A DNA stretch of 60,000 nucleotides from Mobula hypostoma (taxonomy: Eukaryota), in assembly GCF_963921235.1 (NCBI RefSeq), contig NC_086097.1, forward strand, positions 75,704,001 to 75,764,000, written 5' to 3'. Position 1 is the stretch's first letter. Each line of letters opens with the position of its first letter. Of this stretch, positions 5,133-60,000 are shown piece by piece. The position numbers and the translations under genes were made by a program. The notes under the pieces are model-generated. The model made no database searches and had not been told where the DNA came from. It was given only the letters and a program-made list of their open reading frames with translations.

Positions 5133-5134
5133 AG

Positions 5135-6110: not shown

Positions 6111-6114
6111 TTGC

Positions 6115-8454: not shown

Positions 8455-9213
8455 CAACAGGAATTCTGCAGATGCTGGAAATTCAAGCAACATACATCAA
8501 AGTTGCTGGTGAACGCAGCAGGCCAAGCAGCATCTATAGGAAGAGGTGCAGTCGACGTTTCAGGCCGAGACCCTTTGTCAGGACTAACTGAAGGAAGAGT
8601 GAGTAAGGGATTTGAAAGTTGGAGGGGGAGGGGGAGGGGGAGATCCAAAATGATAGGAGAAGACAGGAGGGGGAGGAATAGAGCCGAGAGCTGGACAGGT
8701 GATAGGCAAAAGGGGATACGAGAGGATCATGGGACAGGAGGTCCGGGAAGAAAGACAAGGAGGGGGGGGGTTGACCCAGAGGATGGGCAAGAGGTATATT
8801 CAGAGGGACAGAGAGAGAAAAAGGAGATGGGCCCCATCTGTTACTCATTTTTATGCACACATTCTTTCACACATTCTTTCTCTCACTCTCCTTTTTCTCC
8901 CTCTGTCCCTCTGAATATACCTCTTGCCCATCCTCTGGGTCCCCACCTCTTGTCTTTCTTCCCGGACCTCCTGTCCCATGATCCTCTCGTATCCCCTTTG
9001 GCCTATCACCTGTCCAGCTCTCGGCTCTATCCCTGCCCCTCTTGTCTTCTCCTATCATTTTGGATCTCCCCCTCCCCCTCCAACTTTCAAATCCCTTACT
9101 CACTCTTCCTTCAGTTAGTCCTGACGAAGGGTCTCGGCCTGAAACGTCGACTGCACCTCTTCCTATAGATGCTGCTTGGCCTGCTGCGTTCACCAGCAAC
9201 TTTGATGTATGTT
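8455..9213. mobile_element. Palindromic Penelope-like pseudo-LTR insertion (two inverted arms of about 330 bp)
   Basis: 8489-8827 is the reverse complement of about 8885-9213; 13-bp TSD acttcaaagtgag at 8442-8454 and 9214-9226. Confidence 0.92.
9117..9152 (+). ncRNA. Minimal type I hammerhead ribozyme motif (PLE-borne), intact core
   Basis: agtc-CTGACGA-agg gtctcgg cct-GAAA-cg-TC-gact: stem I agtc/gact, CUGANGA, stem II agg/cct, GAAA, vestigial palindromic stem III (ACGT), GUC cleavage triplet. Confidence 0.75.
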
Positions 9214-10734
9214 ACTTCAAAGTGAGTTTTGTTTTATGTTGTAATTAGTCAGACTTTTAATAGTGATGTATAACAAATTGAATTAGTTTCAAAGATATCT
9301 TGGGCATGATTATAACTGAACCAGGAATGTTGTGCAATGAAAATAGAATCCAAAGGGAGAGAAGGAGATATTTCATATTTGTGCCATGTAATAACATTGA
9401 TTAGAAGCAAAAAATGCTAAAATGTTCAAAATATCACTATTACATGGAACCATCCAGCAGAGGAAAACACCCTTCAATCCATATCTTTGCTGACCATGAT
9501 GCCAATTTAATCTACACATCTGCCTGCAGGGGATCAATATCCTGACATTCTAAACATCAATATGCCTCTTCAGTGCTGCTATTGAAACTGCTTCACCATT
9601 TCCCTTGTTGTGCTTTCCAAGCACCCACTGCTCTGTGTGTGTGTGTGTACTGTTGAAGAAATTATAGTGCATGTAAACTGCTTACAATAATAGATTATAT
9701 AAACAATACTATAATATTTGGAAGTAAAGATAATCTTTTCATTTGTTTAAAAATTGTAAATTTTTCAAGTTAATTAGTTTGCTAAACGAAATCCTGAAGA
9801 TGCAAACCTCTGCTCATTTTTTTGTTATTTCAGTAAAAGTATTGCTACTAGAAGCAAAGTTTAAATGAAACACAATCATAGCTCTATTTACCATTGGGTT
9901 CTCAATTACAGACCATGATTGATGACCCAAAAGACTGCAGATGCTGGGATCTGGAGCAACACAAGATACTGGAGGACTCAAAGTACTTTAATCACCTTTC
10001 GGTTTCGGGAATTAGCAAAAAACAAAGTGATTGCAGTTACCTTGAAACTTAAGAATAATGTTGCTTCATAAGAATTTGGGCAAAATGGTATTTAATGCCA
10101 TATTTGTTTACATTTAACAATTTTAATCTTTCTTTTGTTTTTGAGATTCTAGTTCCAATAATTACTGGGGAATTTTAATTTATAGGGTCCAGATACCCAT
10201 ATACCTGGCTTGTTAAGGTGCAGGTAGCATCTATAGTAGTGGTTTGTGTTATTTGCAGTTTGAAAACAATGAGAGCTACGGATGATTATCTTTTTTGTCA
10301 CACAACCTCTGCCCCATTCCCACTCCATGTTACAGCACCACCACACCCTGGGCTTAATGCATAAATTTTGTTTTAGACTGAGACATCTCATTGCATTGGT
10401 TTTATTTGTGATCTCCTAATGTGCTCATATGCAGCAATCAGTGGTGTGCTTGAAAGAAACTGAAATAAAAGTTCAGAGCAGGAAATGAATCACAAGGTTT
10501 TCTCAATGGCTGAATTTGAGAAATAATGTTCACTTTAGCATGAGAGATTTGAATTAGGGAACAGTGATATTTAACCACCCCATCAGCAGTTTAGGTGCAA
10601 ACAGTCCTTTTCCAATCAAAAATCTGATTTTCTTTTTTGTAATTTTTCCTTGTTCATCTAAGTGGATAAAGGAAGATGGGACTTTGTCTTAATACCTTGA
10701 GAGAAATAAGGAAGGGGTGAAGATAATAAAAGGT

Positions 10735-10885
10735 AATATTTCCCAGGGCAGAAATGGCTTATACCAGGGGCATAATTTTAAGGTGATTGGGGGAAAATAT
10801 AGGAATGATGTCAGAGGTAAGGTTTTTACACAGAGTGGTGAGTGCTTTGAATGCTCTGCCAGGGGTGATGGTAGAGGCAGAATGA
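10735..10885 (+). mobile_element. CR1 3' fragment
   Basis: GHNFKVIGGKYRNDVRGKVFTQ motif. Confidence 0.7.
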
Positions 10886-11109
10886 AGGCCATGGTGGAAC
10901 CATTTGCCTTTCTGGAAGAACATACAATGCAACTTTATTCTTTTGAGTTGATTATCTCCTGTAGCTTTTGGTTGTTTGCCCATCACTTTAAATTAATGGT
11001 TCTTGATCTATCACTCAGGGTGGTGGTAACAATGTCAACATTCCTGAGCTATAATCACAGAGCAACTGTCAGATTTCTTACTGCTGGGTTGTCCATAAGG
11101 GTTCTAATG

Positions 11110-11400
11110 TTCAAGTGTTCAAAGTAAATTTATTATCAAAGTGTATATATGTCACCATTACAACCCTGAGATGTATTTTCTTACTGGCATGCTCAATAAA
11201 TCCGTAATAGAATAATAGCTATAATAGAATCAATGAAAGACCGCACAAACTTGGCCGTTCAACCAGTGTGCAAAAGACAACAAACTCTGCAAATATAAAA
11301 GGAAAGAAATAATAAATAAATAAACAAACAAACAAACAAGCAAGCAATAAATATCAAGAACATGATATAACTGTTGAACTTCATATTGAGTTGAATGTGC
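11110..11400 (-). mobile_element. Rex1/Babar 3' UTR fragment
   Basis: Reverse complement resembles 2280-2466 (ctcagggttgta..ggtgacat.tat..actttga, tttgaac tail). Confidence 0.65.
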
Positions 11401-11924
11401 TTGTGAATGTTGTCTTTTAATGTGGGATAGCAATTGCATACTAGCCACAGCACTAACTTAATAGGTTGAAGTCTGATCTAGTAGCAGGCAAGTACAAGGT
11501 TATGCTCTGCTGTGGAGTGAGATGGTGTCTGGGTAACAATTGTACAGGTGTAATGTAGCTGAACCTGGCCTTCGACCTGCTTGATGTTCATTAGTATTTT
11601 CAAACAAGCACTAGTAACCAGTTAAGATTAGAAATGTTAACTGAATATATGTTATGATAGGAAAGGGCTAAACTGTTGAAATTCAGTTGTATAAAGGATT
11701 TGACAACAGGGTGACCCATTGGGGCACCCTTTGAGAGAAGGGTAGTGCAGTCTGATGTGACCAGAATGAACATTAAATTTTCCTGAATGCTATTGGTATT
11801 GCTTTGCTTTAGAAACTGAAGTAGTAAACCTCAGTTTATTAAAGAAGAATGACATAGCAAAGCAAATATAGCTCCTCCTCGTTTAACAAAGGACACTTTT
11901 GATGGCATCATTTCTGGCTTATCT

Positions 11925-12261
11925 GCCATCCAGGACATCTCAAATGTCCTCCTTCTTTAAGGATCATGGTTTCCCTTCTGCCGTCGTCAATGATGCCCTC
12001 ACCCGCACCTCCTCCATTTCCCGCACTTCGGCCCTCACCCCATCATCCTGTCACCACAACAGGGACAGAGTTCCCCTTGTCCTCACCTACCACCCCACCG
12101 GCCTCCTGATCCAGCACATTATCCTCCGCAATTTCCGCCACCTTCAACAGGACCCCACCACTAAACACATCTTTCCCTCTCCAGCCCTCTCTGCTTTCCG
12201 CAGGGATCATTCCCTTTGCGACTCCCTGGCCCACACATCTCCCACCCGGCACTTATCCCTG
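11925..12261 (+). mobile_element. Penelope-like element internal fragment (post-RT linker)
   Basis: RTSQMSSFFKDHGFP...RVPLVLTYHP...LSAFRRD; highly similar to 40205-40550. Confidence 0.85.
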
Positions 12262-14151: not shown

Positions 14152-14348
14152 AAAAATGGACAATGCTGGAAATGCCCAGCAGGTCAGGCAGCATCTGTGG
14201 TAAAATAAATGAAGTTAGTGTTTTAGTTCAAAGGCCTCTAATCAACATACTTAAACCTGCAAAAGGTCTCTGACCTGAAATGTTAGACTGTTTCTCTTTC
14301 TACAAATGTCGTGTAACTTGCTGGGTGTTTTCAACATGTTCCATTTTC
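14152..14348. mobile_element. Old, short palindromic PLE-terminus-derived element
   Basis: aaaatggacaatgctggaaatgcccagcaggtcag... imperfectly mirrored by ...cttgctgggtgttttcaacatgttccatttt; degenerate hammerhead-like cctgcaaaaggtctctgacctgaaatgtt. Confidence 0.6.
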
Positions 14349-19930: not shown

Positions 19931-20105
19931 TGATAGTTACTTTGCACGAGTGCGAGCAGTGGTGATGACCCGTGATGACTCGAGTGGAGGATGGGTACCA
20001 CTGGGAGGGGGCGGACTCAGCTGTGTCACTGTTTTTAAAGTTCATCTGGATGACTGTGCTCGCGATGATTTTCTTATCCATGGGGAAAGGCTCCGGGACA
20101 AAACA
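19931..20105 (+). CDS. SPRED1: SPRED-family internal coding exon (EVH1 domain N-terminal half), most similar to SPRED1 exon 2
   Basis: After 1 nt completing the upstream codon it reads [58 protein letters not shown], matching the SPRED signature [16 protein letters not shown]...GERLRDK. Acceptor ttggccttctttttgcag| and donor ACA|gtagga. Length is 175 nt (1 + 58 codons), the length and phase I recall for human SPRED1 exon 2. Confidence 0.93.
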
Positions 20106-20559
20106 GTAGGAAATACATTTTTTTTTACAATTTGTTTTAGTAACTTGTTGAAGCCAATGTTTAAATGATTATTAACATTGGGCAAAGGATGGAATAAAAT
20201 TATCCATACAACTTCATTTTTGTGTGGGTTGAATATTTCTGCACATATGAATATAATATTTGTGTATGTTCTGTGTTTATTTAATGCTATTTTGTTCCTC
20301 CCCTCCCCCGTTAAGTTATGGTTCCTCATCTTTAAAAAAAATTAAATGCTCAATGTTTTCAGAATTTTAATAAAACAACAAAAAGATTGTGTTATTTTTA
20401 ATATCTATACTGAACAGATGCAGAATATGCATTGCATGTTTTACTTGAGCTGAGCTTCCCTGCTGTGATCTTGGATTTCAATTTAGGATACTCTGATGCA
20501 GCATACTGTCAAAACCTCCTTCAGTTTCTTGAATGATTTGTTTTTTCACTTGGTTAAAA

Positions 20560-22245: not shown

Positions 22246-23345
22246 TCAAGTCAAGTCAAGTCACTTTTTATTGTCATTTCAACCATAGCTGCTGGTACAG
22301 TACACAGTAAAAACGAGAGAACGTTTTTCAGGACCATGGTGCTACATGAACAATACAAAAACTACACTGAACTACGTAAAACAACACAAAATCTAACTAG
22401 ACTACAGACCTACCCAGGACTGCATAAAGTGCACAAAACAGTGCAAGCATTACAATAAATAATGAACAATAGGCACAGTAGAGGACAGTAGGTTGGTGTC
22501 AGTCCAGGCTCTGGGTATTGAGGAGTCTGATGGCTTGGGGGAAGAAACTGTTACATAGTCTAGTCATGAGAGCCCGAATACTTTTGCCAGATGGCAGGAG
22601 GGAGAAGAGTTTGTATGAGGGGTGTGTAGGGTCCTTCATAATGCTGTTTGCTTTACAGATGCAGCGAGTGGTGTAAATGTCTGTAATGGTGGGAAGAGAG
22701 ACCCCGATGAGCTTCTCAGCTGACCTCACTATCTGCTGCAGGGTCTTGCGATCCGAGATGGCGCAATTTCCGAACCAGGCAGTGATGCAGCTGCTCAGGA
22801 TGCTCTCAATACAACCTCTGTAGAATGTGGTGAGGATGGAGGGGTGGGAGATGGACTTTTCTCAGCCTTCACAGAAAGTAGAGACGCTGCTGGGCTTTCT
22901 TTGCTATGGAGCTGGTGGTGGGGGACCAGGTGAGATTCTCCGCCAGGTGAACACCAAGAAATTTGGTGCTCTTAACGATCTCTACGGAGGAGTCGTCGAT
23001 GTTCAGCAGAGAGTGGTCACTCCGTGTCCTCCTGAAGTCAACAACCATCTCTTTTGTTTTGTTCATATTCAGAGACAGGTTGTTGGCTCTGCACCAGTTC
23101 ATTAGCTGCTGCACCTCCTCTCTGTATGCTGACTCATCATTCTTGCTGATGAGACCCACCAAGGTCGTGTCATCGGTGAACTTGATGATGTGGTTCGAGC
23201 TGTGTGTTGTAGCACAGTGGTGGGTCAGCAGAGTGAACAGCAGTGGACTGAGCACACAGCCCTGGAGGGCCCCCGTGCTCAGTGTGATGGTGTTGGAGAT
23301 GCTGCTTCCAATCTGGACTGAATGAGGTCTCCCAGTCAGGAAGTC
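22246..23345 (-). mobile_element. Rex1/Babar LINE, 5'-truncated
   Basis: [60 protein letters not shown]; (TTGAC)n tail at 22246-22264. Confidence 0.9.
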
Positions 23346-23669
23346 ATATCCATTTATATGTGTAATTTCATTTGTTTCCAATATATTGTACATAGTCCCT
23401 CTCCCATTTCAAATGTGAGACTTTCATTTTACCTTGCTCATTCCCAGATTCTTCCCTTTGCACAACAGCTAGCCCATATTCTATATAGTCATTGCCTTCC
23501 TCCTTCCAACCCAGTACTCAAATCTATCACTTCTCTCAGTACTTATTGCCCTCAGTAATTTATCTAACTCTTGTATCCCTTACCATTTTCCTGTTGTTAA
23601 CCACAATTTCTTATTACTTCCACTATAATTTGTCCATGTCATAGAATTATAGATACAACACAGTAGCAG

Positions 23670-24060: not shown

Positions 24061-24069
24061 TTGTTTTGG

Positions 24070-24248: not shown

Positions 24249-24405
24249 TTTTATACTAGCTATTGTGATGCTCCAGATATACTCAAACCACAAAATTCCT
24301 TAGCCTTTAATGACTCATCAGACATTATTTTGTTTCAATCCACTTCATGATCCATTCCCCTAAATCGTTTCATAACAATGTAAAACCTGCACCCATCCTG
24401 ATAAT

Positions 24406-25050
24406 AAGCACAGGAGACTCTGCAGGTATTGGAAATTCAGAACAACACACACAAAATGCTGGAGGAACTCAGCAGGTCAGGCAGCACCTTTGAGAATCAA
24501 TAAACTGTCAACTTTCAGGCCGAGGCCCTTCATCAGTATTGAAAAGGAAATGAGAAGAAGCCAGGCCACGATGAGCTGGAGCAGCAGCACCTCATATTCT
24601 GCCTGGGTAGCCTCCAACCTGAGGGCATGAACAACGATTTATCTTAACTACCAGTAATTTTTCCTCCTTCCCCTTCCCTCCTCAATGCCCCACTCTGCCC
24701 CTACCCCACCTCTTCTCTTCTCCTAATCTGCCTATTACCTACCCCTGGTGTCCCTCCTCCTTCCTTTTCTCCCATTGTCCACTTTTCTTTCCTATCAAAT
24801 TCCTTCTTCTCTAGCCCTTTACCTTTTCTCCTCTCAGCTTCTTACTTTATTTCCCCTGTCCCCCATCCACCTGGCTTCATCTATCGCCATCTAGCTTGTG
24901 CTCCTTCCCCTCCCGCCACCTCCTTAATCTTGCTTCTTCCCCCTTCCTTTCCAGTCCTGATGAAGCGCCTCAGCCCAAAATATCGACCGTTTATTCATTT
25001 CCATGGTAGCTGTTTGACCTGCTGAGTTCCTCCAGCTTATTATGTGTGTT
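24406..25050 (+). mobile_element. 5'-truncated Penelope-like element with inverted 5' pseudo-LTR
   Basis: 15-bp perfect TSD acccatcctgataat (24391-24405, 25051-25065); inverted terminus 24406-24565; direct part encodes LEQQHLIFCLGSLQPEGMN; hammerhead-like motifs at about 24505-24540 (-) and 24952-24990 (+, degenerate). Confidence 0.88.
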
Positions 25051-25950: not shown

Positions 25951-26084
25951 TACTAATGATGACCATTCTACTAACTCTTTACATTATGCTTTCTTGTTCT
26001 TCCTGCAATGTGATACCAAAATGGTTTGCAGACCCTCATTCCATCTGCAGTATTTTACAGATCAGTATAATGATCTTGTGTCCT

Positions 26085-27262
26085 CATGCCTCAACTCCAT
26101 TCTATTCCCCCTTGGTTCAGTCCCTTCCCACCTACATCCCCAACACTTCCTGTGCTCTCAATCTCCTCAGTAACTTTCGATTCCCTGGCCCTGACTGCCT
26201 CAGTTTCACCAAGGATGTCCAGTCCTTATACACTTCTAGCCCCATCAAGAAGGCCTTAAAACTCAACGCTTCTTTCTCAATAAAAGAACCAACAATTCCC
26301 CTCCACGACCACCCTCCTCCATCTGCCTGAACTGGTCCTCACCCGCTAAAATGTTTCCTTTGACACCTTCCACTTTTCTCCAGACTCAAGGGGTAGCCAT
26401 GGACACCTGCATGGATCCCAGCTATACCTGCCTCTTTGTTGGCTATGTAGAACAGTCCATTTTACAAGCCTTCCCCAGTAATACTCTTGAACTCTTCCTC
26501 CGCTATATTCATGACTGCATTGGTGCTGTTTCTTACACCCATGCTGAGCTTATCTATTTCATCAACTTTGCCTCTAACTCCCACCCTGCCCCTTAAATTC
26601 ACTTAGTCTCTTTCTGCCCCCCCCTTCTCTATCTCTGTTGGCAAACTGTCGACCGATATCTTTTATAAAACTAGAGATTCCCACAGCTATCTTGACTATA
26701 CCTTTTCCACCCTATCTCCTGTAAAAATCCTATTCTGTTTTCTCAGTTGCATCATCGGCACTCATTTATTCCCAGGATGCAACTTCCCTCTCCAGGACAT
26801 AATAGTTGGTTTCCCTTCCTCCAGCATAGATTCTCCCCTCATCCATATCTCCCCCATTTCCCGAATATCCACACTCACCCCACCTTCCCGCCACTTTAAC
26901 AGCAATACTGTTCCTCATGCCTTTACCTACAACCCCATGAGCCCTCGCATCCAACATATCCTCCTATGCAACTTCTGCCATCTCCAAAGGGATCCTACTA
27001 CAAAATCTACCTTTACTTCCTCCTCCCCTTTCCGCACGGACCACTTCCTCTGTGATTCACTTGTTCATTCACTCCTCCCTACTCATATCCCTCCTAGCAC
27101 TTATCCCTGCAAGTGGCCAAAGTGCTACACATGCTTATTCACCTCCATTCAAGACCCCAAACAGTCCTTTGAGGTACGGCAATACTTCATCTGCAAATCT
27201 GCTAGGGTCGTCTATTGTGTTTGGTGCTTCCGATGCGGCCACCTCTACATTGGTGAGATGTT
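26085..27262 (+). mobile_element. Decayed Penelope-like element (RT + GIY-YIG start)
   Basis: DVQSLYTS, QTQGVAMDTCMDPSYTCLF, RYIHDCIG, VVYCVWCFRCGHLYIGE. Confidence 0.85.
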
Positions 27263-38290: not shown

Positions 38291-39171
38291 CATCTGCTTT
38301 TAAATAATCAACATTTTCTTGAATTAGTGTGCACATGTAATTATAGCACCTCCTTGCACAGTGGAACACAGAAATATTGCAAGGAAATGTTGATTTCAGG
38401 CACTGAGCCTGGCGCTGTTGTGCAGGAGGGAAGGAGGGAGAAGAGGAATGCGGTAGTCATAGGGGATTCCATAGTCAGGGGAACAAACAGGAGATTCTGT
38501 GAGCCTGATAGAGATACCCACGTGGTGTGTTACCTCCCAGGTGCCAGGGTACGGGATGTCTCGGATCGGGTCCAGAATATTCTGAAGGGAGAGGGCGAGC
38601 AGCCAGCTGTCTTGGTACATGTTGGTACCAATGACATAGATAGGAAAAGGGAGGAAGTCCTGAAGAGAGATTTCTGGGAGTTAGGAAGGAAGCTGAGAAG
38701 CAGGACCTCCAGGGTAGTAACCTCAGGATTGCTACCTGTGCCACGTGCTAGCGAGGGCAAGAATAGTAGGATCAGGCAGATGAATGCATGGCTGAGAGAC
38801 TGGTGCAGGGGAAGGGCTTCAGATTCTTGGATCATTGGGATCTCTTCTGGGGAAGTATGACCTGTTCAAAAAGGATGGGTTGCACCTGAACCCGAAGGGG
38901 ACCAATATCTTGGCGGGAAGGTTTAATAGAGCAGTTAGGGAGGGTTTAAAGTAATTTGGCAGGGGGATGGGATCTGGAATGATAGAGCAGAAGAGGGGGA
39001 AAACAGAAATAGATCTAAGATAGTGAGTAGTAAAGATGTCAGGAAGGTCAGGCAGGTGATGGGGCAAATTTGCAGCCATTGGGATGAGTTGCAGTGCAAT
39101 CAAAGCAAAGAGTACCAAATACTGGACTTAAGGTGTTAAACTCAAATGCACGCAGCATAAGGAATTAGGTG

Positions 39172-41338
39172 CTGTAGTAGTCTGGCGCACAGACCTCTAC
39201 CTTACTGAGGCCAAACGGCAGCTCTCTGACACCACATCTTACGTACCCCTGGAACAGGTCCCCACCAAAAAACATCAAACCATTGTCTCCCGTACCATCA
39301 CTGCCCTTATCAACTCCGGAGACCTTCCCTCCTCAGCCACTAAACTCATTATTCCCACACCCCATACCGCTCAGTTTTACCTCCTCCCCAAGATCCACAA
39401 GTCTGACTGTCCCGGTAGACCCATAGTTTCTGCCTGCTCCTGTCCCACCGAACTTGTATCTGCCTACCTGGACTCCATTTTGTCACCCATAGTTCAGTCC
39501 CTCCCCACCTACATCCGGGATACAACCCATGCCCTCCACCTCTTCAATAACTTCCAGTTCCCTGGTCTCAACCGCTTCATTTTCACTATGGATGTCCAAT
39601 TCCTATACACCTCCATTCCCCATACACCTCCATTCCCCATCACGTAGGCCTCAAAGCCCTCCGCTACTCTCTGGATAATAGACCTCACCAGTTCCCCACC
39701 ACCACTACCCTCCGGTTGGCGGAACTAGTTCCCACACTCAATAACTTCTCTTTTGGCTCTTCCCACTTGCTTCAGACTAAGGGTGTAGCTATTGGAACTC
39801 ACATGGGCCCTAGCTATGCCTGCCTCTTCGTTGGTTATGTGGAACAGTTTGTGCTCCAAACCTATTCTGGTACTGCTCCCCAACTTTTCCTTCAGTACAT
39901 TAAGAAATACATTGGTGCTGCTTCCTGCACCCATGCTGAGCTCGTCAATTTCATCGACTTTACTTCTACATTCCACCCAGCCCTCAAATTCACTTGGTCT
40001 ATCTCGGACACTTCTCTCCCCTTTCTCGATCTCTTGGTCTCCATCTCTGGAGACAGACTGTCCACTGTCATCTTCTACAAGCCCACTGACTCTCATAACC
40101 ACCTCAGCTATACCTCTTCCCACCCCGCCACATGCAAAAATGCCATTCACTGTTCCCAGTTCCTCCATCTCTGCCGCATCTGCTCCGAGGATGAGGTTTT
40201 CCATTCCAGGACATCTCAAGTGTCCTCTTTCTTTAAAGATGGTGGTTTCCCTTCTGCTGTCATCATTGATGCCCTCACCCGCATCTCCTCCATTTCCCGC
40301 ACTTCGGCTCTCACCCCATCCTCCCGCCACCACAACAGGGACGGAGTTCCCCTTGTCCTCACCTATCACCCCACCAGCCTCTGGATCCAGCACATTATGC
40401 TCCACAACTTCCGCCACCTTCAACAGGACCCCACCACTAAGCACATCTTTCCCTCTCCACCCCTCTCCGCTTTCCGCAGGGATCGGTCCCTCCATGACTC
40501 CCTGGTCCACACGTCCCTCCCCATGGATCTCCCACCTGGCACTTATCCCTGTAAGCGCAAGTGCTACACCTGTCCCTACACCTCCTCTCTTGTCACCGCT
40601 CAGGGCCCCAAACAGTCCTTCCAGGTGAGGCAACACTTGTGACTCTGTTGGGGTCATCTATTGCATCCGGTGCTCCCAATGCAGCCTCCTCTACATCGGT
40701 GAAACCCGACGCAGATTGGGGGACCGCTTCGTCGAGCACCTCCGCTCCATCCGCCAAAACAGACAGGATCTCCCAATAGCCACCAACTTCAACTCTGGTT
40801 CCCATTCCCATTCAGATATGTCCATACATGGCCTCCTCTACTGCCATGATGAGGCTAAACTCAGGTTGGAGGAGCAACTCCTCATATACCGTCTAGGTAG
40901 TCTCCAGCCCCTTGGTATCAACATAGAGTTCTCCAACTTCTGGTAATTCCCTGCCCCTCCCTTCCCCTATCCCTATGTCACTCTGCCCCCCTCCCCCAGC
41001 TGCCTATCACCTCCCTCATGGTTCTGCCTCCTTCTACTACTCATTGTGTTTTCCCCTATTCTTTCTTCACCTTTCCTGCCTATCACCTCCCTGCCTCCCC
41101 TCCCCCACAGCTTTATCTTTCCCCTTACTGTTTTTCACCTGGAACCTACCAGCCTTTTCCTTCCCACCCTCCCCCCACCTTCTTTATAGGGCCTCTGCCC
41201 CTTCCCCCTACAGTCCTGGCGAAGGGTTCCAGCCCGAAACGTCGACCGATCTTTACACGGATTCTGCCCGACCTGCTGAGTTCCTCCAACGTGTTGTGAG
41301 TGTTGCTTTGACCCCAGCATCTGCAGATTATTTTGTGT
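39172..41338 (+). mobile_element. Penelope-like element, 5'-truncated (RT, GIY-YIG, pseudo-LTR), inserted in CR1
   Basis: FYLLPKIHK..GRPIVS, GVAIGTHMGPSYACLF, VIYCIRCSQCSLLYIGETRRRLGDRFVEH; 15-bp TSD ataaggaa(t/t)(t/a)aggtg with one mismatch (39157-39171, 41339-41353); variant hammerhead at about 41212-41248 (CTGGCGA). Confidence 0.93.
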
Positions 41339-42964
41339 ATAAGGAATAAGGTGGATGATCTTGTCATACAGCTACAGATTGGCAGGTATGGGCCATCACT
41401 GAGATGTGGCTAAAGGGTGCATGTCTCTGGGAGTTGAACATCCAAGGATACACGGTGTATCGGAAGGATAGGAAGGTAGGCAGAGGGAGTGGCGTGGTTT
41501 TATTGGTAAGAAATGATATTAAATCATTAGAAAGAGGTAACATAGGATTGGAAGGTACAGAATCTTTATGGGTTGAGCTAAGAAATCGCAGGGGTAAAAG
41601 GACAGTTATATGCAGGCCTCCTAATAGCTGCAGTGGTGTGGACTACAAATTACAACAGGAAATAGAAAAGGCTTTTCAGAAGGGCAGTGTTATGATTATT
41701 GTGGAGGATTTTAACATGCGAGTGGATTGGGAAAATCAGGTCGGCACTGGATCTCCAGAGAGAGAATTTGTAGAATGTCTACGAGGTGGCTTTTTAAAAC
41801 AGCTTGTTGTTGAGCACATAGGGGATCGGCTGTACTGGATTGGGTATTATGTAATGAACCAGAGGTGATTATAGAGATTGAGGTGTAGGAACCTTGAGGA
41901 GGCAGTGATCATAACATGATTGAGTTCACTGTGAAATTTGAGAAAGAGAAGCCGAAATCCAATATGTCGGTATTTCAGTGGAGTAAAGGAAATTACAGTG
42001 GCATGAGAGAGGAACTGGCCAAAGTTGACTGGAAAGGGACACTGGCGGGAAGGACGGCAGAGCAGCAGTGGCTGGAATTTATGCGAGACATGAGAAAGGT
42101 GCAAGACAGGTATATTCCAAAAAAAGAGGATATTTTTGAATGGAAAAAGGATGCAACCGTGGCTGACAAGAGAAGTCAAAGCCAAAGTTAAAGCAAAAGA
42201 GAGGGCATACAAGGAAGCAAAAATTAGCAGGAAGACAGGATTGGGAAGTTTTTAAAAGCTTGCAAAAGGAAATTAAGAAGGTCATTAAGAGGGAAAAGAT
42301 GAACTCTGAAAGGAAGCTAGCAAATAATATCAAAGAGGATACTAAAAGCTTTTTCAAGTATATAAAGAGTAAAAGACAGGTGAGAGTAGATATAGGACCG
42401 ATAGAAAATGATGCTGGAGAAATTGTAATGGAAGATAAGAAGATTGCGGAAGAACTGAATGAGTATTTTGCATCAGTCGTCACTGAGGAAGACATCAGCA
42501 GTATACTGGACACTCAAGGGTGGCAGGGAGAAGTGTGCGCAGTCACAATTACGACAGAGAAAGTACTCAGGAAGCTGAATAGTTTAAAGGTAGATAAATC
42601 TCCCAGACCAGATGGAATGCACCCTCGAGTTCTGAAGGAGGTAGCTGTGGAGATTGCAGAGGCATTACCAATGATCTTACAAAAGTCAATAGATTCTGGC
42701 ATGGTTCCGGAGGACTGGAAGATTGCAAATGTCACTCCGCTATTTAAGAAGGGGGCAAGGAAGCAAAAAGGAAATTTATAGACCTGTTAGCTTGACATGG
42801 GTGGTTGGGAAGTTGTTCGAGTCGATTGTCAAGGATGAGGTTACGGAGTACCTGGAGGCATATGACAAGATAGGCAGAACTCAGCATGGTTTCCTTAAAG
42901 GAAAATTCTGCCTGACAAACCTATTGCAATTTTTTGAGGAAATTACAAGTAAGCTAGACAAGGG

Positions 42965-43258
42965 TTAAGGCATTGGACTAGTGACCCGAAGGTCGTGAGT
43001 TCGAGCCCCAGCCGAAGGAACGTATTGTGTCCTTGAGCAAGGCACTTAATCACACATTGCTCTGCGACGACACTGGTGCCAAGCTGTATGGGTCCTAGTG
43101 CCCTTCCTTTGGACAACATTGGTGTCGTGGAGCGCGGAGACTTGCAGCATGGGCAACTGCTGGTCTTACATACAACCTTGCCCAGGCCTGCGCCCTGGAG
43201 AATGAAGACTTTCCAGGCACAGATCCATGGTCTCGCAAGACTAACAGATGCCTTTACA
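42965..43258 (+). mobile_element. tRNA-derived SINE inserted in the CR1 RT
   Basis: 10-bp TSD tagacaaggg (42955-42964, 43259-43268); B box gagttcgagccc; CORE-like gtgtccttgagcaaggcacttaa. Confidence 0.85.
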
Positions 43259-45315
43259 TAGACAAGGGAGATGCAGTGGATGTTGTGTATTTGGATTTTC
43301 AGAAAGCCTTTGACAAGCTGACACACATGAGGCTGCTTAACAAGATAAGAGTCCATGAAATTACGGGAAAGTTACATACGTGGATAGTGCGTTGGCTGAT
43401 TGGCAGGAAACAGAGAGTGGGAAAAAAATAAAGGGATCCCATTCTGGTTGGCTGCCGGTTACTAGTGGTGTTCCACAGGGGTCCGTGTTGGGGCCGCTTC
43501 TTTTTACTTTGTACATCAACGATTTGGATTATGGAATAGATGGCTTTGTGGCCAAGTTTGCAGATGATACAAAGATAGGTAGAGGGGCCGGTAGTGCTGA
43601 GGAAACAGAGAGTCTGCAGAGAGACTTGGATGGATTGGGAGAATGGGCAAAGAAGTGGCAAATGAAATACAATGTTGGAAAGTGTATGGTTATGCACTTT
43701 GGTAGAAGAAATAAACGGGCAGACTATTATTTAAATGGGGAGAGAATTCAAAGTTCTGAGATGCAACGGGACTTGGGAGTCCTTGTGCAGGATACCCTTA
43801 AGGTTAACCTCCAGGTTGAGTTGGTGGTGAAGAAGGCGAATGTAATGTTGGCATTCATTTCTAGAGGAATAGAGTATAGGAGCAGGGATGTGTTGTTGAG
43901 GCTCTATAAGGTACTGGTAAGACCTCATTTGGAGTACCGTGTGCAGTTTTGGGATCCTTATTTAAGAAAGGATGTGCTAACGTTGGAGAGGATACAGAGA
44001 AGATTCACTAGAATGATCCTGGGAATGAGAGGGTTAACATATGATGAATGTTTGACCACTCTTGGACTGTATTTCTTGGAGTTTAGAAGAATGAGGGGAG
44101 ACTTTATAGAAACATTTCGAATGTTGAAAGGCATGGACAGAGTGGATGTGGCAAAGTTGTTTCCCATGGCGGGGGAGTCTAGTACGAGAGGGCATGAGGA
44201 TTGAAGGGCGCCCATTCAGAACAGAGATGTGAAGAAATTTCTGTAGCCAGAGGGTGGTGAATCTGTGGAGTTTGTTGCCACGGGCAGCAGTGGAGGTCAA
44301 ATCATTGGGTGTATTTAAGGCAGAGATTGATAAGTATCTGAGTAGCCAGGGCATCAAAGGTTATGGTGAGAAGGCGGGGGAGTGGGACTAAATGGGAGAG
44401 TGGATCAGCTCATGATAAAATGGTGGAGCAGACTCAATGGACTGAATGGCCGACTTCTGCTCCTTTGTCTTATGGTCTTATTTCATGTTAAAGCATTAAT
44501 TGAACAGCTTATTGGTGTGAGCATCCGACAGAAACAAAAACCTGAATATCTTTTGTTTATGCTCAAGGACCTCAACTTTGAGTTAGAAATTAACAGAATT
44601 TATCAACATTTGGAAGATTCAAAGTAAATCTTAAGAATATTATGTGGGTCAGAGCAGTAAATTGCAGAAGAACATTCACTCTGCAAATGAGCAAAATTTT
44701 GGCAGATGGCATCAACGCAACTAGGCTTGAATTTGTCCCATAATCTTAATCACTCTGTAATTCTAGTTCATGTTTTTCAATTTAGGTTGTATACTCTTAG
44801 TTAAAAATTCTTTTTACAATGAGTATATGATGCTCCAGGTATTTACTGCAACATTTAGAAGAACTTAAAGACAGACTCCATTGTATAAAAATGCTTAGTA
44901 AAGCCATAAAGTCATGAAATGCGCAATGCAAATTTCAAATACAGGTTGAGTACCCCTTATCTGATATGCTTGGAGCTGGAAGTATTTCAGATTTTGGAAT
45001 ATATAATATCTTGGGATCATCGTCATTTCCAACTCTGTATTATGTACTACCAGTAAGCAGTCTTTGTCTTACAGTTGTTCATCATTCATATGTACTTAAC
45101 AGTTTAGCTTATTATATACCGTTAATATAATGAAAACGTAATGTGTGCAGTGTTACAAAAGCAGCATGGCAGCATGGGGAGAATACCTAAGTCAGCTGTT
45201 GAACGAACAACAAACAAAAGCAGGCTTTCCGTCTCCTCCTAAGATGTCATGTTTTGATTGGAAGGTTACAGTACACTGTTTTTGTATTTTACTTTTTTTT
45301 AGGTTTTATGTAAGG

Positions 45316-47645
45316 TAGTGGTGGCCAACCGTCGATCGCGATCGACAGGTCAATCTTTGAGACTTCCTCAGTCGATCCCAAAAAAAATCAAAAATAAGTT
45401 GACAAATACTGTTGTAATGTGAGCATTATAAGAGTAAGTAATACTAATTAGGATTATGGTAATATAGCAATACTTTCGCTATGAAAAGTTGTTTGTAAAG
45501 AGAGATTGTTTCCGGGTTGCGGGGTTTTAGTTCTGTTCTTTCTGCCCATTGCGCATGTGTGTGTAGCTCCCCTGCCATGCACCGTGTTTTCAGCGTAGCC
45601 TGTGCTGCATCAAAGTGACCAATCAGATTAGATGAGAGTACAGACTGTCACAAACATCAATATACGGCAGTGGTCCCCAGCCTCCGGGCCGTGAGGAATG
45701 CAGTGGTACAGCGGTAGTCAGAACGCACCCAGCATATCTTTAAGAAAAAAAGCCAAAATAAGCAAGCTAATTAATTAGGTGCCACCTGGCATGTAAATGT
45801 CGGCCCAGATCAGAGGCGACGCAATCGGCAATCGTTCGCGATATCCTGATAGCATGGCGGAGGCTCCATGAAAGGTGGCAAAAACATACATATTCCATCC
45901 ACAGTGGAAAGAGGAATTTCTGTTTACCTTGGTGAAAGACAAGTGTGTATGTATGTTGTGCCACCAAACACAAGCACTGACTAAAAGAGGGAATCTGGAG
46001 CGGCACCACAATACCAACCACCAGAAATTTAAAGACACCTACCCCCCAAAGAGCACAATCCGTGCCAGGAAAGTTGAGGAGCTCAAATCGGGGTTAAAGG
46101 CCCAGCAGTTGTTTTTCACAAAACATGCTGCTCAAAATAAGGCTGCTATTGAAGCATCATTTCGTGTAGGTCATCTTTACGCTAAACACAAGAAGCCTTT
46201 TACAGATGACGATTTATTCAAAGAAGCAATGGTCATTACTGCAGAGACTGTTTTTAATGACTTTAAAAACAAAAACAGCATCACAACCGCAATACATAAT
46301 ATACCGCTTGGCCCTGCAACAGTGACAAGGAGGGTAGAGTCACTGTCAAGAGGATGTGGATATTTTTCACTACAGTTCGATGACTCCCTGGATGTAATGC
46401 AAACAGCTCAGCTTGTTGTATTTGTCAGAATGGTTTTCCAGGATTTTACAACAAAGGAGGACTTCCTCAGTCTTTTGCAATTAAAGGAGAGAACGCGAGC
46501 TGGGGATATTGACAATGAGTTAAAAAAAATATGTCCGTGAAAATGACATCCCCATTCATAAACTGGTGGCAATTACTACTGATGGGGCCCTAGCAATGCA
46601 CGGTGTGCGCGTTGGTTTTATAGCACTAAAAGTCAGTGCCTACTTCGGGTCAACATATCTATGTGAAATTGCATTTTCACAGATGAAAATTATTAAATCT
46701 AAGTACAGGAGCTGACTTACTGACAGACACCTCACTAGGGTTGCTAACTTTCTCACTCCCAAATAAGGGACAAAAGTAGCAGTCAAATCCCAGGACACTT
46801 GTGTTTACCCCGAGAAAGACTAACATGACCATGAAGCCTTGCGTGGGCACTTGTGTGCGCATGTGCGTACGTGCTGATTTTTTTCCACGGATCAATTTTG
46901 GTTTAATCTTCATTATTTTTACTTTATATAGGCTGTGTATTTATCATATCATTCCTGCTTTTACTATATGTTAGTGTTATTTTAGGTTTTATGTGTTCTT
47001 TTGTATAATTTGGTAGTTTTGGGTCTGGGAAGGCTCAGAAATTTTTCCCATATAAATTAATGGTAATTACTTACTTGCTTCACGCCATTTCGGCACGAAA
47101 TGTTTCATAGGAACGCTCTACCTTAGCGGGGGAAGTACGGGACAAAGGCTGCCCTGTATGGGACAAACCAATTTAGCCCAATATACGGGATGTCCCGGCA
47201 AATACAGGACAGTTGGCAACCCTACACCTCACAGACTGTCTCAGACTGGCTGTCTGTAGTTATGAGCCAAATTTCAGGGAACTAGCAGAAAGTATTCAGC
47301 CCCAGTCATCACACTGAGTGCAAGTCAATTTTTATTCATTTATTTTTCATGTTGAAATAAAATTAAATAATGAAACTTAGAATTAAAGGTGTGAAGTATT
47401 GTAATATTCTTAAAGACAGCTATGGCCTGTTTGATATGCTAGTTACAGTGTTTTCTTGTTTGAATTAATTTGAAAGTTTGACAAAAGTATTTTGTGTTAT
47501 TCAAATACAGTTAGCCCAAATAAAAGGCCTCAAATTGGAAGTACAATCTGAGCGGTTTTTTCTCTAAATGATTTAGTAGGCAGATCTTGCCTTTCACTAA
47601 GGTCGAGGTAGGGGATCTTGGGCTTAAAGAGGTTGGTGACCACTA
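45316..47645 (+). mobile_element. hAT (Charlie/SPIN-like) transposon with internally deleted, decayed transposase
   Basis: TIR tagtggtggccaacc / ggttggtgaccacta; 8-bp TSD at(g/a)taagg; zinc finger CVCMLC..NLERHHNTNH, FSLQFDDSLD, ITTDGA, then the dimerisation motif FGSTYLCEIAFSQMKIIKSKYRS. Confidence 0.9.
46736..47224. mobile_element. hAT MITE (489 bp)
   Basis: TIR tagggttgctaact / agttggcaacccta; perfect 8-bp TSD cacctcac (46728-46735, 47225-47232); subterminal gggaca repeats. Confidence 0.9.
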
Positions 47646-50986: not shown

Positions 50987-51022
50987 AGTCGACGTTTCAG
51001 GCTGAGACCCTTCGTCAGGACT
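50987..51022 (-). ncRNA. Minimal type I hammerhead ribozyme motif, intact core
   Basis: Reverse complement agtc-CTGACGA-agggtctcagcct-GAAA-cg-TC-gact. Confidence 0.72.
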
Positions 51023-51361: not shown

Positions 51362-53928
51362 TTAAAAACGCAAACACGAGGAATTCTGCAGGTGCTGGAA
51401 ATTCAAGCAACACACATCAAAGTTGCTGGTGGACGCAGCAGGCCAGGCAGCATCTCTAGGAAGAGGTACAGTCGACGTTTCGGGCCGAGACTCTTTGTCA
51501 GGACTAACTGAAAGAAGAGATAGTAAGAGATTTAAAAGTGAAAGGGGGAGGAGGAGATCCGAAATGATAGGAGAAGACAAGATGGGGAGGGATGGAGCCA
51601 ACAGCTGGACAGTTGATTGGCAAAAGGGATATGAGAGGATCATGGGACAGGAGGCCTAGCGAGAAAGAAAAGGTGGGGGGGACCCAGAGGATGGGCAAGG
51701 GGTGTAGTGAGAGGGACAGAGGGAGAAAAAGGAGAGAGAGAAAAAGAATGTGTGTATATAAATAAATAAATAAATAACAGATGGGGTACGAGGGGGAGGT
51801 GGGGCATTAGCAGAAGTTTAAGAATTTAATGTTCATGCCATCAGGTCGGAGGCTACCCAGACGGAATATAAGATGTTGTTCCTCCAACCTGAGTGTGGCT
51901 TCATCTTTACAGTAGAGGAGGCCGTGGATAGACATATCAGAATGGGAATGGGATGTGGGATTAAAATGTGTGGCCACTGGGAGATCCTGCTTTCTCTGGC
52001 GGCAGAGCGTAGGTGTTCAGCAAAACGATCTTCCAGTCTGCGTCGGGTCTCGCCAATATATAGAAGGCCATGGATGTTTTCACCATGGATGTCCATTCCC
52101 TATATACTTCCATCCCCCATCAGGAAGGTCTCAAAGCTCTCCGCTTCTTTTTGGATTCCAGACCCAATCAGTTCCCCAATAGCACCACTCTGCTCCATCT
52201 AGCGGAATTAGTCCTTACTCTTAATAATTTCTCCTTTGGCTCCTCCCACTTCCTCCAAACTAAAGGTGTAGCTATGGGCACCCGTATGGGTCCTAGCTAT
52301 GCCTGCCTTTTTGTTGGCTTTGAGGAACAATCTATGTTCCAAATCTATTCTGGTATCTGTCCCCCACTTTTCCTTTGCTACATCGACAACTGCATTGGCG
52401 CTGCTTCCTGCACGCATGCTGAGCTCGTTGACTTCATTAACTTTGCCTCCAACTTTCACCCTGCCCTCAAGTTTACCTGGTCCATTTCCGATACCTCCTT
52501 CCCCTTTCTAGATCTTTCTGTCTCTATCTCTGGAGACAGCTTATCTACTGATGTCTACTATAAGCCTACTGACTCTCTCAGCTATCTGGACTATTCCTCT
52601 TCTCACCCTGTCTCTTGCAAATGCCACCCCCTTCTCGCAATTCCTCCGTCTCTGTCACATCTGCTCTCAGGATGAGGCTTTTCATTCCAGGACAAGGGAA
52701 ATGTCCTCTTTTTTTAAAGAAAGGGGCTTCCCTTCCTCCACCATCAACTCTGCTCTCAAACGCATCTCCCCCATTTCACGCACATCTGCTCTCACTCCAA
52801 CTAGAAATAGGGTTCCCCTGGTCCTCACCTACCACTCCACCAGACTCCGGGTCCAACATATTATTCTCCGTAACTTCGCCACCTCCAACGGGATCCCACC
52901 ACTAATAAGCACATCTTTCCCTCACCCCCTCTCTCTGCTTTCCGCAGGGATCGCTCCCTACGCGACTCCCTTGTCCATTCGTTCCCCCCATCCCTCCCCA
53001 CTGATCTCCCTCCTGGCACTTATCCCTGTAAGCGGAACAAGTGCTACATATGCCCTTACACTTCCTCCCTTACCACCATTCAGGGCCCCAGACAGTCCTT
53101 CCAGGTGAGGCGACACTTCACCTGTGAGTCGGCTGAGGTGATATACTGCGTCCGGTGCTCCCGATGTGGCCTTCTATATATTGGTGAGACCCGACTCAGA
53201 CTGGGAAATCGTTTTGCTGAACATCTACGCTCTGTCCGCCAGAGAAAGCAGGATGTCCCAGTGGCCACACATTTTAATTCCACATCCCATTCCCATTCTG
53301 ATATGTCTATCCACAGCCTCCTGTCCTGTAAAGATGAAGCCATGCTCAGGTTGGAGGAACAACACCTTATATTCCATCTGGGTAGCCTCCAACCTGATGG
53401 CACGAGCATTGACTTCTCTATCTTCCGCTAATGCCCCACCTCCCTCTCCGTTATTTATTTTTATTCACACATTCCCTCCCCCTCCTGTCTTCTCCTATCA
53501 TTTTGGATCTCCCCCTCCCCCTTCTCCCCCCCCCCACTTTCAAATCTCTTACTAACTCTTCCTTCAGTTAGTCCTGACAAAGGGTCTCGGCCTGAATTGT
53601 TGACTGTACCTCTTCCTAGAGATGCTGCCTGGCCTGCTGCGTTCACCAGCAACTTTGATGTGTGTTGCTTGAATTTCCAGCATCTGCAGAATTCCTGTTG
53701 TTTGCGTTTAAATTCACTACTGCGAAGCCTCTTCCGGTGATGCCTACACCGAAGAAGTTTAGATCCTCTCTTCGACGGGAGTTCAGTGAAACCATCTCTC
53801 ACTGCTCCCCATCTGTAATTTCTTCGGCTCTTCAACTTTTCGACCACACTTTGACTCAAACTCGCTATCACAGCCATGTATCCTTTCTTGGAAGGTGCCT
53901 CCGTCGCCAACTTACTCCAGTAAGTAAC
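51362..53928 (+). mobile_element. Nested Penelope-like element: inverted 5' segment (51362-52069), RT/GIY-YIG body, pseudo-LTR and start of the next tandem ORF
   Basis: MDVHSLYTSIPH, GVAMGTRMGPSYA, YIDNC, VIYCVRCSRCGLLYIGET; 16-bp TSD with one mismatch; 3' extension encodes TRYHSHVSFLGRCLRRQLTP. Confidence 0.9.
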
Positions 53929-54284
53929 AGTTAGAGAAGTCAATGTTCATTCCATCAGGTTGAAGGCTACCCAGATGGGAAATAAGGTGTTGTTCCTCCA
54001 ACCTGAGTGTGGGTTCATCTTGACAGTAGAGGAGGCCGTGGATAGACATATCAGAATCCGAATGGGACATGGAATTAAAATGTGTGGCCAGGGTTGAGGG
54101 GGATCTAAGATTTTTGAGTTAAATTTTTAATTAGTTTATCACTAATAACTTCAGTAAGTGAGTGATATAATTTCCAAAGTAAGGAGCAGAGGAGTGTTGC
54201 AGAACGGTGACTTAGTATTTATAGGTACATAGTCCTTTGAAAGTAGCCCCATTAGGAAGATGCTGGCACTCCACTTATTTCTAG

Positions 54285-55590
54285 ATAGCTATTTCCCCTC
54301 CACCACTTGTGTCTGGCAGAACTGATACTGCTTACCCTCAATAACTTATCTATCAGTTCCTGCCTCTTCCTTCAGACCAAAGCTGTAGCTGTGGGCACTT
54401 GCATGGGTCCCAGTTATGCTTACCAACTTTCCCAGTTGCCAAACATACATTGGCAAATGCATTGGTGCTGCTTCTTGCATCAATTTCATCAACTTCGCTA
54501 GCAATTTCTACCCCATCCTCAAATTCACTTGGTCTACCTTCAATACTTCTCCCTCTTTTGATCTCCCTGCTTCCAGCTCGGGAGACAAGTTAACCAGAGA
54601 TGACACGTACAAACACACTGACTGTCCCAGATACTTCACCTACACCTCTTCCCACCCTATCACTTGCAAGTATGTAATTCCCTTTTTTCAGTTTCTCTGT
54701 TTCTGCTGCATCTGTTTTCATGATAAGGCTCTCCATTACAGTATAAGCTGAGCTCTCTTTTCAGAAAATGTGGTCTATTTACCCCCCCCTGCCCCCCCGC
54801 AATCTAAGCAGTCTTTGTGCATCTCTTCGACTTCCCATAATTGCGCCCTAACCTTATTTCGCCTTCATCCCATTTCACCATTCCTCTCCCCCCCCAGTCA
54901 TAACAGAGATGGAGTTACCCTTTCTCCTTACCAACCACCCTATAAGCCTTTGCATCCAACATACACTCTGCAACATCCACCATTTTAAATGAGATCCCAC
55001 CACCAGGTACACCTTCCCGTTCCCTCTCCGTTTTCTGCAAGTATCATTCTGTCTCTCTGACTGTCTTGTCCAGTTTCTGCCGACATGTCTGTCAACAGAC
55101 TTCTCTGCTTCCAGTTGATGTGCAGATTAGAGGAAGAGAATCTTGTATTCTAGCTCAGTAGTCTCCATTATGATGACAAGAACATTGATTTCTCTAGCTT
55201 TTGGCAACCACTCCTCTCTGTCCCCCCTTTTTTTCTTATCCTATTGACAACCGTATTCTCCCCTGCTCTTTTAATCTGCCCATCATCACACTTTTTTCTT
55301 GCAGTTCCTCACCTCACCTCTGTTTTATTCACAGGTCTACTGTCCTCTCCTATATGCCTCCTTCTTCAGTCCTTTGTCACTTGCATCTATCACCTCCCAA
55401 CTTCTTGTATCGTTCCCTTTCTTCCCCCTCCCACACCTAGATTCACTCACCAGCTCTTGCCCCACTTCTCCACCCCCTCCACCTCAACATTTTATACTGG
55501 CTGTCTCCCATCCCCTTTTTCTTGATGAAGAGTCTGTCCATTTTCCTCCATAGATATACCTGACCTGCTGAGTTCCTTCAGCTTTTCGTA
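54285..55590 (+). mobile_element. Decayed Penelope-like element
   Basis: FLQTKAVAVGTCMGPSYA, FASNFYPILKFTW; pyrimidine tract; terminus cctgacctgctgagttcc. Confidence 0.8.
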
Positions 55591-55604
55591 GGCTACCTTT
55601 GACT

Positions 55605-59100: not shown

Positions 59101-59779
59101 TCCATTTTCATTATTGCCTTCAGAAAGGTTAATATTTTTGTTTTCCATTTTACTTTTCATCTGTGAAGTTCTGTCATCTAATATTTTTGTGACTGCATTT
59201 TGAAAGATTCCTGGCCAGTTCTGGTATTCTGTTTTGGAAGATATCCTTAAACTGTCTTGACCCCTTTGAAGCCTGTCCACATCAGCACATTATGGTTTAC
59301 CCTTAGCTTTTTACTAAAACAAGGCCTTAAATATATGATGCACAAGATTTTGCACATGTTTATTTTACATGAAAGTTTAACATGAAACACAAACAGTGAT
59401 TCCTGTTTGATTTGTCAGAAAATTCTTTTGGTTCTTGGTCTGATTGAATTTGTGTTAAATTGCTCATAGGTGTACGTTGGTATAGTATATGTGATCTGAA
59501 GAATGTATTGATGCAATTTTCTGTCAGCTTCAAATTTGATTGTTAAAAGAAGCTTTTGTTTCATGAATTTTGATTTGCCCATCTCTTTTTTGGTCTAGTC
59601 ACTGAACGTCAAAGAGCAGTAAGTGGGCAGTGTACATGCAAAAGCAATTTGCAAGCCAAAGACGTGAAACTTCAGTTCTTAGCAACAGAAGCATGCTGCA
59701 AAGTAGTCTTGCATAAAATATTTGAAATTTGATACTTTTAGACAATGATATTTTGCAATACTGAAAATAAATTTAACCA

Positions 59780-60000
59780 AACAGCGGGAATTCTGCAGAT
59801 GCTGGAAATTGAAGCAACACACATCAAAGTTGCTGGTGAACGCAGCAGGCCAGGCAGCATCGCTAGGAAGAGGTACCATCGACGTTTCAGGCCGAGACCC
59901 TTCGTCAGGATTAACTGAAGGAAGAGTTAGTAAGAGATTTGAAAGTGGGAGGGGGAGGGGGAGATCCAAAATGATAGGAGAAGACAGGAGGGGGAGGGAT
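59780..60000 (-). mobile_element. Penelope-like pseudo-LTR, running off the window end
   Basis: Near-identical to 8455-8680. Confidence 0.9.
59877..59912 (-). ncRNA. Minimal type I hammerhead ribozyme motif, intact core
   Basis: Reverse complement aatc-CTGACGA-agggtctcggcct-GAAA-cg-TC-gatg. Confidence 0.68.

What the first reader, a model, noticed from the sequence alone, without database searches (positions are those of the whole stretch)
8550..59912. Hammerhead ribozyme motifs scattered through the SPRED introns by Penelope-like elements
Seen: the motif [stem I]-CTGANGA-[stem II]-GAAA-CG-TC-[stem I'] recurs in PLE termini. Cores are intact at 9117-9152 (+), 50987-51022 (-) and 59877-59912 (-). 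Variant or broken copies lie at about 8550-8585, 24505-24540, 24952-24990, 41212-41248, 51470-51505 and 53570-53606, with remnants near 5190-5222 and 14256-14290. Established: PLE pseudo-LTRs encode minimal type I hammerheads whose vestigial palindromic stem III suggests cleavage as dimers. Inference: about ten copies in 60 kb implies a very large genomic load of ribozyme motifs in this lineage, which standard annotation would miss.
Basis: partly seen in the sequence, partly recalled or inferred. Interest (0 to 1): 0.72.

Follow-up and report, generated by a model that had tools for sequence, protein, structure and literature searches.

The report
Penelope retrotransposon ends carrying hammerheads
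These are real copies of a tiny, predicted self-cutting RNA motif carried at the ends of a known kind of jumping gene in a ray genome, present in about 60,000 intact copies, and the ones in the SPRED1 introns are likely inert passengers.

Summary
Confirmed and ordinary in kind. All 11 sites exist. They are minimal type I hammerhead motifs in the 3' pseudo-LTR of Penelope-like elements (RT plus GIY-YIG, Neptune-type linker) inside spliced introns 1-2 of SPRED1 in a ray. They match the published metazoan PLE consensus (Cervera 2014). Related PLE families show stem covariation and 17 of 17 palindromic stems III, which supports the dimer model. The load is large: 59,673 exact intact motifs in 3.48 Gb, and about 0.4-0.8 million termini extrapolated; axolotl already has 126,247 hammerheads in print. 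The window's 13 motifs come from about 8 insertions, mostly head-to-head fold-backs. The only intact sense copy (9117) is predicted to be locked in a 740-nt hairpin with its own antisense twin. Copies decay at CpG sites with no sign of selection. No copy ends at the cut site (0 of 77), and an apparent pile-up of 5' ends there vanished after a microhomology control. Cleavage itself was not tested. The scan has reported this family before, in this genome and at least 16 genomes.

The parts
9117..9152 (+). Intact minimal type I hammerhead: stem I AGUC/GACU, core CUGACGA, extra A, short stem II with G10.1-U11.1, GAAA, palindromic ACGU, predicted cut after 9148. Only intact sense copy in SPRED1.
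8550..8585 (-). Inverted twin of 9117 with G8A (CpG decay)
8455..9213 (.). One fold-back PLE insertion (arms about 90% alike); 13-bp target duplication at 8442-8454 and 9214-9226
   Evidence: hairpin predicted
5132..5239 (-). Old PLE terminus with decayed motif (5188-5223)
14162..14340 (.). Old fold-back pair of termini (14162-14239 minus, 14253-14340 plus), motifs decayed
19931..20107 (+). SPRED1 exon 2 (host gene), the only exon in the window
24406..25050 (.). Fold-back PLE insertion with broken motifs at 24505-24540(-) and 24953-24988(+); 15-bp target duplication at 24391 and 25051
39168..41341 (+). 5'-truncated PLE: RT, linker, GIY-YIG (40629-40946), 3' UTR, motif at 41212-41247 with A6G
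   Evidence: 92% to tandem unit L084
50921..51365 (-). PLE terminus with intact motif 50987-51022, antisense to SPRED1, 483 nt from the dead same-strand copy at 51470
51379..53934 (+). PLE with inverted 5' arm (51379-52070, motif 51470-51505 G8A), RT and GIY-YIG (52064-53431), broken motif 53570-53605, running on into the start of the next unit's ORF
55523..55590 (+).
   Evidence: 29.5 bits
59770..60000 (-). PLE terminus with core-intact motif 59877-59912 (weak stem I); its inverted partner lies just outside the window near 62.1 kb

Best explanation
The motifs are minimal type I hammerheads in the 3' pseudo-LTR of a very abundant Penelope-like retrotransposon of a ray; they would cut only as dimers in tandem element transcripts, and the truncated intronic copies in SPRED1 are likely inert passengers that decay at CpG sites. 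Shown: the motif lies on the element's sense strand behind the RT/GIY-YIG ORF. Inserted copies end about 65 or 100 nt past the cut site, so the 3' motif was read through uncut or re-ligated. Most insertions are 5'-truncated, and many are head-to-head fold-backs. Inferred from published PLE work: two same-strand motifs pair through the ACGU palindrome, probably with protein help, to process the tandem RNA. Predicted: a lone motif folds into an inactive hairpin (G5-G8 with CGUC), and a fold-back copy is locked in double-stranded RNA.
For: GIY-YIG above the Pfam cutoff at 40629 and 52874; RT and GIY-YIG matches in near-full ORFs. All 20 long-ORF loci carry motifs, typically one on the ORF's strand a few hundred nt downstream, and two loci have tandem motifs 3.55 kb apart. 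All 30 pattern hits examined continue into the same terminus. 3' ends fall in two clusters, 126 of 138 at +58..75 or +95..114, like the published 30-40-bp tail. 76 of 77 young copies chosen by the 5' half of the motif run 40 nt or more past the cut site. In 80 metagenome loci of related PLEs there are 17 sense motifs, 1 antisense and 0.05 in shuffles. Stem III is palindromic in 17 of 17 though this was not required. Eight of 10 pairs change on both sides across 14 sequences. CpG loss is equal at the catalytic and the stem III dinucleotide (11.6% each). 9117 pairs with 8550 at probability 0.9996. Monomer misfold 0.43 against 0.0006 for the open hammerhead. SPRED1 mRNA is spliced in 4 of 4 runs.
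Against: No cleavage assay. The sequences were chosen by a descriptor that demands stems I and II, so their pairing is partly built in. Within this genome the stems barely vary between subfamilies, and the region 3' of the motif is as conserved as the core. The commonest variant has G10.1-U11.1 and only a 3-4 bp stem II. A related group of 12 of 150 termini carries A6C, a change with low activity in print, so the element may spread without a good ribozyme. Same-strand neighbours within 4 kb do occur (10 of 37 adjacent pairs), so some intronic dimers are possible. Clade assignment rests on the linker motif, not on a tree.
Confidence: 0.82

Rival explanations
1. The motif no longer needs to cut. 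It is kept in this family as a structural signal in the pLTR (promoter, protein binding, or reverse-transcription boundary), or simply hitchhikes.
For: Anole PAc hammerhead mutants insert normally in vitro, and no RNA-seq reads end at the cut site (PMC11167929). Naiads spread without hammerheads. No cleavage footprint here. A6C subgroup. Eight of nine Xenopus retrozyme dimers did not cleave. 5' ends of young copies rise from about -60 onward across the motif (24 of 52 in -60..+29 against 5 in -200..-61).
Against: Catalytic core, stems and the palindrome are kept across families whose proteins are only 26-48% identical. That is hard to explain without selection for a dimeric ribozyme.
Confidence: 0.12
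2. Intronic copies do cut host pre-mRNA at a low rate, alone, in trans or as chance tandem pairs, and affect splicing or expression of genes such as SPRED1.
For: About 60,000 intact motifs. Terminus sequence is abundant in contigs of runs guessed to be RNA. Domesticated intronic hammerheads exist in amniotes.
Against: No strand depletion in SPRED1 (12 sense, 12 antisense; core-intact 3 and 4). No excess of dead copies (G8A 1,565 against tolerated C7U 2,601). The one fully intact sense copy is in a fold-back. mRNA is spliced.
Confidence: 0.05
3. The short copies are an independent non-autonomous retrozyme or SINE family, not PLE debris.
For: Many copies are only 100-250 nt. Retrozymes derived from pLTRs are described in vertebrates, including one chondrichthyan.
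Against: No tandem arrays of short units in the window. 5' ends vary while 3' ends are fixed. 23 of 52 young copies run more than 200 nt upstream, toward the 3' UTR and ORF.
Confidence: 0.01

Closest known systems
[quoted passage not shown]
   Same: U-rich lead, 3-5 bp stem I, CUGANGA plus one extra nucleotide, G at 10.1, GAAA, palindromic vestige of stem III (the same ACGU as in Ixodes, sea urchin, lamprey, fugu), mostly single truncated copies, some close inverted pairs.
   Different: Stem II is shorter (3-4 bp against about 5-8). The count is higher than the 4,000 (coelacanth) and 9,000 (Xenopus) reported. No cartilaginous fish was found in the searched supplement.
Endonuclease-positive PLEs with a CX2-5CxxC linker (Neptune/Nematis type; Craig et al. 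2021, PMC8557442, passages read)
   Same: RT, linker, C-terminal GIY-YIG; pLTR tandems, inverted 5' copy, 30-40-bp tail.
   Different: Not placed on a tree with named references.
PAc Poseidon element of Anolis (Frangieh et al. 2024, PMC11167929, main text read)
   Same: Two 3' ends about 35 nt apart downstream of the hammerhead; uncut RNA as template.
   Different: Other clade. There the ORF starts inside the hammerhead; here the likely start lies about 135 nt after the cut site (inferred).
Axolotl and other non-LTR retrozymes (PMC7229834, passages; bioRxiv 10.64898/2026.07.22.740005, parts 1-3 read)
   Same: Type I hammerheads with weak stem III at very high copy number (126,247 in axolotl).
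   Different: Those are short tandem non-coding repeats with shown cleavage and circles. These are dispersed ends of a coding element, about one intact motif per 58 kb against roughly one per 220 kb.

Membership tests
Minimal type I hammerhead of PLEs | Core CUGANGA, GAAA, NUH with stems I and II | tested here: met
   3 copies in the window, 59,673 in the genome
Minimal type I hammerhead of PLEs | Extra nucleotide after A9 and G10.1-C11.1 | tested here: met
   Extra A present; G-C in one variant, G-U in the commonest; G-U also in published fish motifs
Minimal type I hammerhead of PLEs | Palindromic vestigial stem III | tested here: met
   ACGU here; 17 of 17 palindromic in relatives
Minimal type I hammerhead of PLEs | Covariation across families | tested here: met
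   with descriptor bias for stems I and II; none within this genome
Minimal type I hammerhead of PLEs | Self-cleavage as a dimer | not testable with these tools
   No assay; only contigs, no raw reads
Rfam hammerhead families | Match to a curated model | tested here: not met
   None among 19 matches at E<=5
EN+ Penelope-like element | One ORF with RT and C-terminal GIY-YIG | tested here: met
EN+ Penelope-like element | pLTR tandem, inverted 5' copy, 30-40-bp tail | tested here: met
   L084 635-bp and L089 about 370-bp direct repeats
Neptune clade | CX2-5CxxC linker | tested here: met
   CKRKCYTC and CKRNKCYIC before the endonuclease; definition
Neptune clade | Phylogenetic placement with named references | not tested
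   No named reference sequences were at hand; the linker is shared with Nematis
Non-LTR retrozyme | Short non-coding tandem units each with a hammerhead | tested here: not met
   Dispersed, mostly inverted, continuous with the PLE 3' region

The most novel reading that the evidence does not exclude
This ray family carries the densest hammerhead load found for a vertebrate in the papers read, and its copies record that the ribozyme is held off in single units by a built-in G5-G8/CGUC misfold. It fires only in tandem RNA, to make a unit-length circle that the reverse transcriptase copies through the re-ligated site. That would explain why no copy ends at the cut site and why tandem copies run hundreds of bases past the upstream site.
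Probability: 0.15. Interest if true: 0.6.

Novelty: new member of a known kind. Interest (0 to 1): 0.25.

Why it matters
The role of PLE hammerheads in vivo is still open. A family with 36,060 identical motifs and young, nearly intact ORFs gives unusual statistical power to ask whether cleavage shapes insertions and whether hosts select against sense-strand intronic ribozymes. The tests done here point to neither. The count also shows how much predicted catalytic RNA Rfam-based annotation misses in ray genomes. As a discovery it extends a known class to a thinly studied lineage.

Tried and rejected
Cleavage footprint in 5' ends: forced-mismatch patterns gave 245 copies starting at +1 against 147 at +6 (about half of the 100 listed looked like small indels, by eye) and 35 at -8. 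In the first 100 of 533 junctions near the site, spreading each over its microhomology left a flat profile (inverted class 7.0 at +1, range 2.9-7.7). Rejected as evidence; a small excess is not excluded. Selection for function from C7U exceeding G8A (2,601 to 1,565): rejected, because flanking context differs on the two strands (own knowledge of CpG mutation), and the symmetric stem III site goes slightly the other way (1,985 to 2,207). Rfam microRNA hits at 8765-8950 are below gathering scores and reflect the fold-back. Sequencing runs: no RNA holder listed on record, only contigs guessed to be RNA, so RNA ends and circles were not readable. Lunse et al. on PLE hammerhead dimers could not be read; it is known here only through a review. 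Literature searches for hammerheads or Penelope elements in sharks and rays found only the preprint that samples one chondrichthyan; its supplementary tables were not seen and may hold counts. A preprint on batoid repeats has no mention of PLEs or ribozymes in the terms searched.

Full report
Observation. Ten 36-nt copies lie within 11 mismatches of the copy at 9117-9152, and none appears at that distance in 50 shuffles. A descriptor that demands the core and at least 3 bp in stems I and II finds three copies in the window (9117 plus, 50987 minus, 59877 minus) and 11 in 260 kb around it, against 0.15 in shuffles. A profile finds 13 termini in the window, two more than listed. The loose core pattern alone is within chance. 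Rfam reports no hammerhead family.

Host gene. The exon at 19931-20107 is SPRED1, identical to a protein cluster named for the ray Hypanus sabinus, so the genome is a batoid's. Exon 1 lies 28 kb before the window, exon 3 near 66.4 kb and the last exon near 86 kb, all on the plus strand. Contigs from 4 of 4 runs of this or related organisms join exons 1, 2 and 3. All motifs are therefore in introns 1 and 2, and spliced mRNA is made.

The element. GIY-YIG domains pass the Pfam cutoff at 40629 and 52874. Longer genomic copies show RT and GIY-YIG in one frame with a CX2-5CxxC linker, which Craig et al. give for Neptune and Nematis. All 20 long-ORF loci fetched carry motifs, typically one on the ORF's strand a few hundred nucleotides past its end. 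L084 and L089 are partial tandems with motifs 3.55 kb apart. All 30 pattern hits examined continue into the same terminus. 3' ends form two clusters about 35 nt apart (126 of 138), the PLE tail that Frangieh et al. tie to two internal RT start sites. In the window the 13 motifs reduce to about 8 insertions. 8455-9213 and 24406-25050 are single fold-back insertions with 13- and 15-bp target duplications.

Is it a hammerhead? The motif fits the published consensus for metazoan PLEs point by point. Within this genome the stems hardly vary, so they give no covariation, and the downstream region is equally conserved. For an outside test I took 80 metagenome loci encoding relatives of the RT. They hold 17 sense-strand motifs, one antisense, against 0.05 in shuffles; 11 of 35 loci with a complete ORF end and flank have one within 1 kb downstream. 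Stem III is a palindrome in 17 of 17, of six different sequences, though the search did not ask for it. In an alignment of 12 of these with two window copies, 8 of 10 pairs change on both sides (stems I and II were preselected).

Load. Exact counts in 3.48 Gb: 36,060 identical 34-mers, 45,476 for the main subfamily and 59,673 with any loop II, with reversed-pattern controls of 0. Forty evenly picked 10-kb stretches hold 67 termini, 14 with an intact core, which extrapolates to about 580,000 termini (370,000-800,000). Published counts are about 4,000 in coelacanth, 9,000 in Xenopus and 126,247 type I motifs in axolotl. The ray is denser, one per 58 kb against roughly one per 220 kb in axolotl, but of the same order.

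How it likely works. From published work, minimal PLE hammerheads cut weakly and as dimers; the anole one needs protein and is dispensable for insertion in vitro. Here a lone motif is predicted to pair G5-G8 with CGUC (0.43 against 0.0006 for the open hammerhead). Of 77 young copies picked by the 5' half of the motif (some loci overlap), none ends at the cut site and 76 run 40 nt or more beyond it. The copied RNA was therefore uncut or re-ligated there. The two tandem copies also extend 300-530 nt past their upstream cut site. Both a read-through tandem RNA and a circle fit; these data do not separate them.

Are intronic copies active? The only fully intact sense copy in SPRED1 is 9117. It follows its own reverse complement and is predicted to be fully paired (0.9996). 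Sense and antisense termini are equal in the gene (12 and 12; core-intact 3 and 4), a small sample. Decay looks neutral: 11.6% of the master count is lost at both the C7-G8 and the stem III CpG, with no excess of dead forms. Against a strict need for catalysis, 12 of 150 termini carry A6C, most of them from one related group.

A test that failed. Copies seemed to start at the first base after the cut more often than nearby (245, 147, 35). Thirty such loci were mostly inversion junctions. In 100 of 533 junctions near the site the excess disappeared once microhomology, which the ribozyme's own complementarities supply, was allowed for. Earlier scan notes report 5' ends piling just before the motif. 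In my unbiased sample ends rise from about -60 but spread across the motif (24 of 52 in -60..+29), so this is only partly reproduced.

Verdict. A real and correctly read feature, a new member of a class described in 2014, at a high but not unprecedented copy number. No paper on it in rays turned up in seven searches, apart from a preprint that samples one chondrichthyan and whose supplements were not seen. Interest 0.25.

Noticed in passing
L129, L065, L087, L134, L089, L064 and others: An older PLE subgroup with a shared upstream sequence carries A6C in the hammerhead core (12 of 150 termini have A6C), so a weakened core seems to have been amplified.
   Followed up: partly
L171-L270: About 13-17 of 100 junctions near the cut site join the inverted arm through the CGTC/GACG complement, the same pairing as the predicted misfold.
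   Followed up: partly
L084:2847-3716: Contigs from three runs skip 868 nt of the element's 5' region; an internally deleted subfamily or an intron.
   Followed up: no
L089:3463-4141: A tandem array with a unit of about 76 bp sits directly at the element's 3' end.
   Followed up: no
L182/L183: A 31-bp tandem duplication begins exactly at the first base after the predicted cut site.
   Followed up: no
(P0124, P0224): PLE protein pieces appear inside database isoforms of ray host genes (divergent protein kinase domain 1C, chitinase domain-containing 1): exonisation or annotation error.
   Followed up: no
window 34714-36631, 41359-44204, 38192-38860, 22499-23408, 1133-2269: Other decayed non-LTR retroelements with RT, one with a GDSL esterase-like frame.
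   Followed up: no
window 45872-46540: Open frame with a Spin-doc zinc finger, likely a DNA transposon remnant.
   Followed up: no
window 53659-53934: The insertion runs about 220 nt past the usual tail into the start of the next unit's ORF, so its template was a tandem or circular RNA.
   Followed up: partly
window 5812-6551, 11929-12261, 26072-27256, 54293-54741: Further PLE body fragments without a nearby scored motif; PLE-like sequence covers about 7.6 kb of the window and 3.7% of 400 kb sampled.
   Followed up: partly
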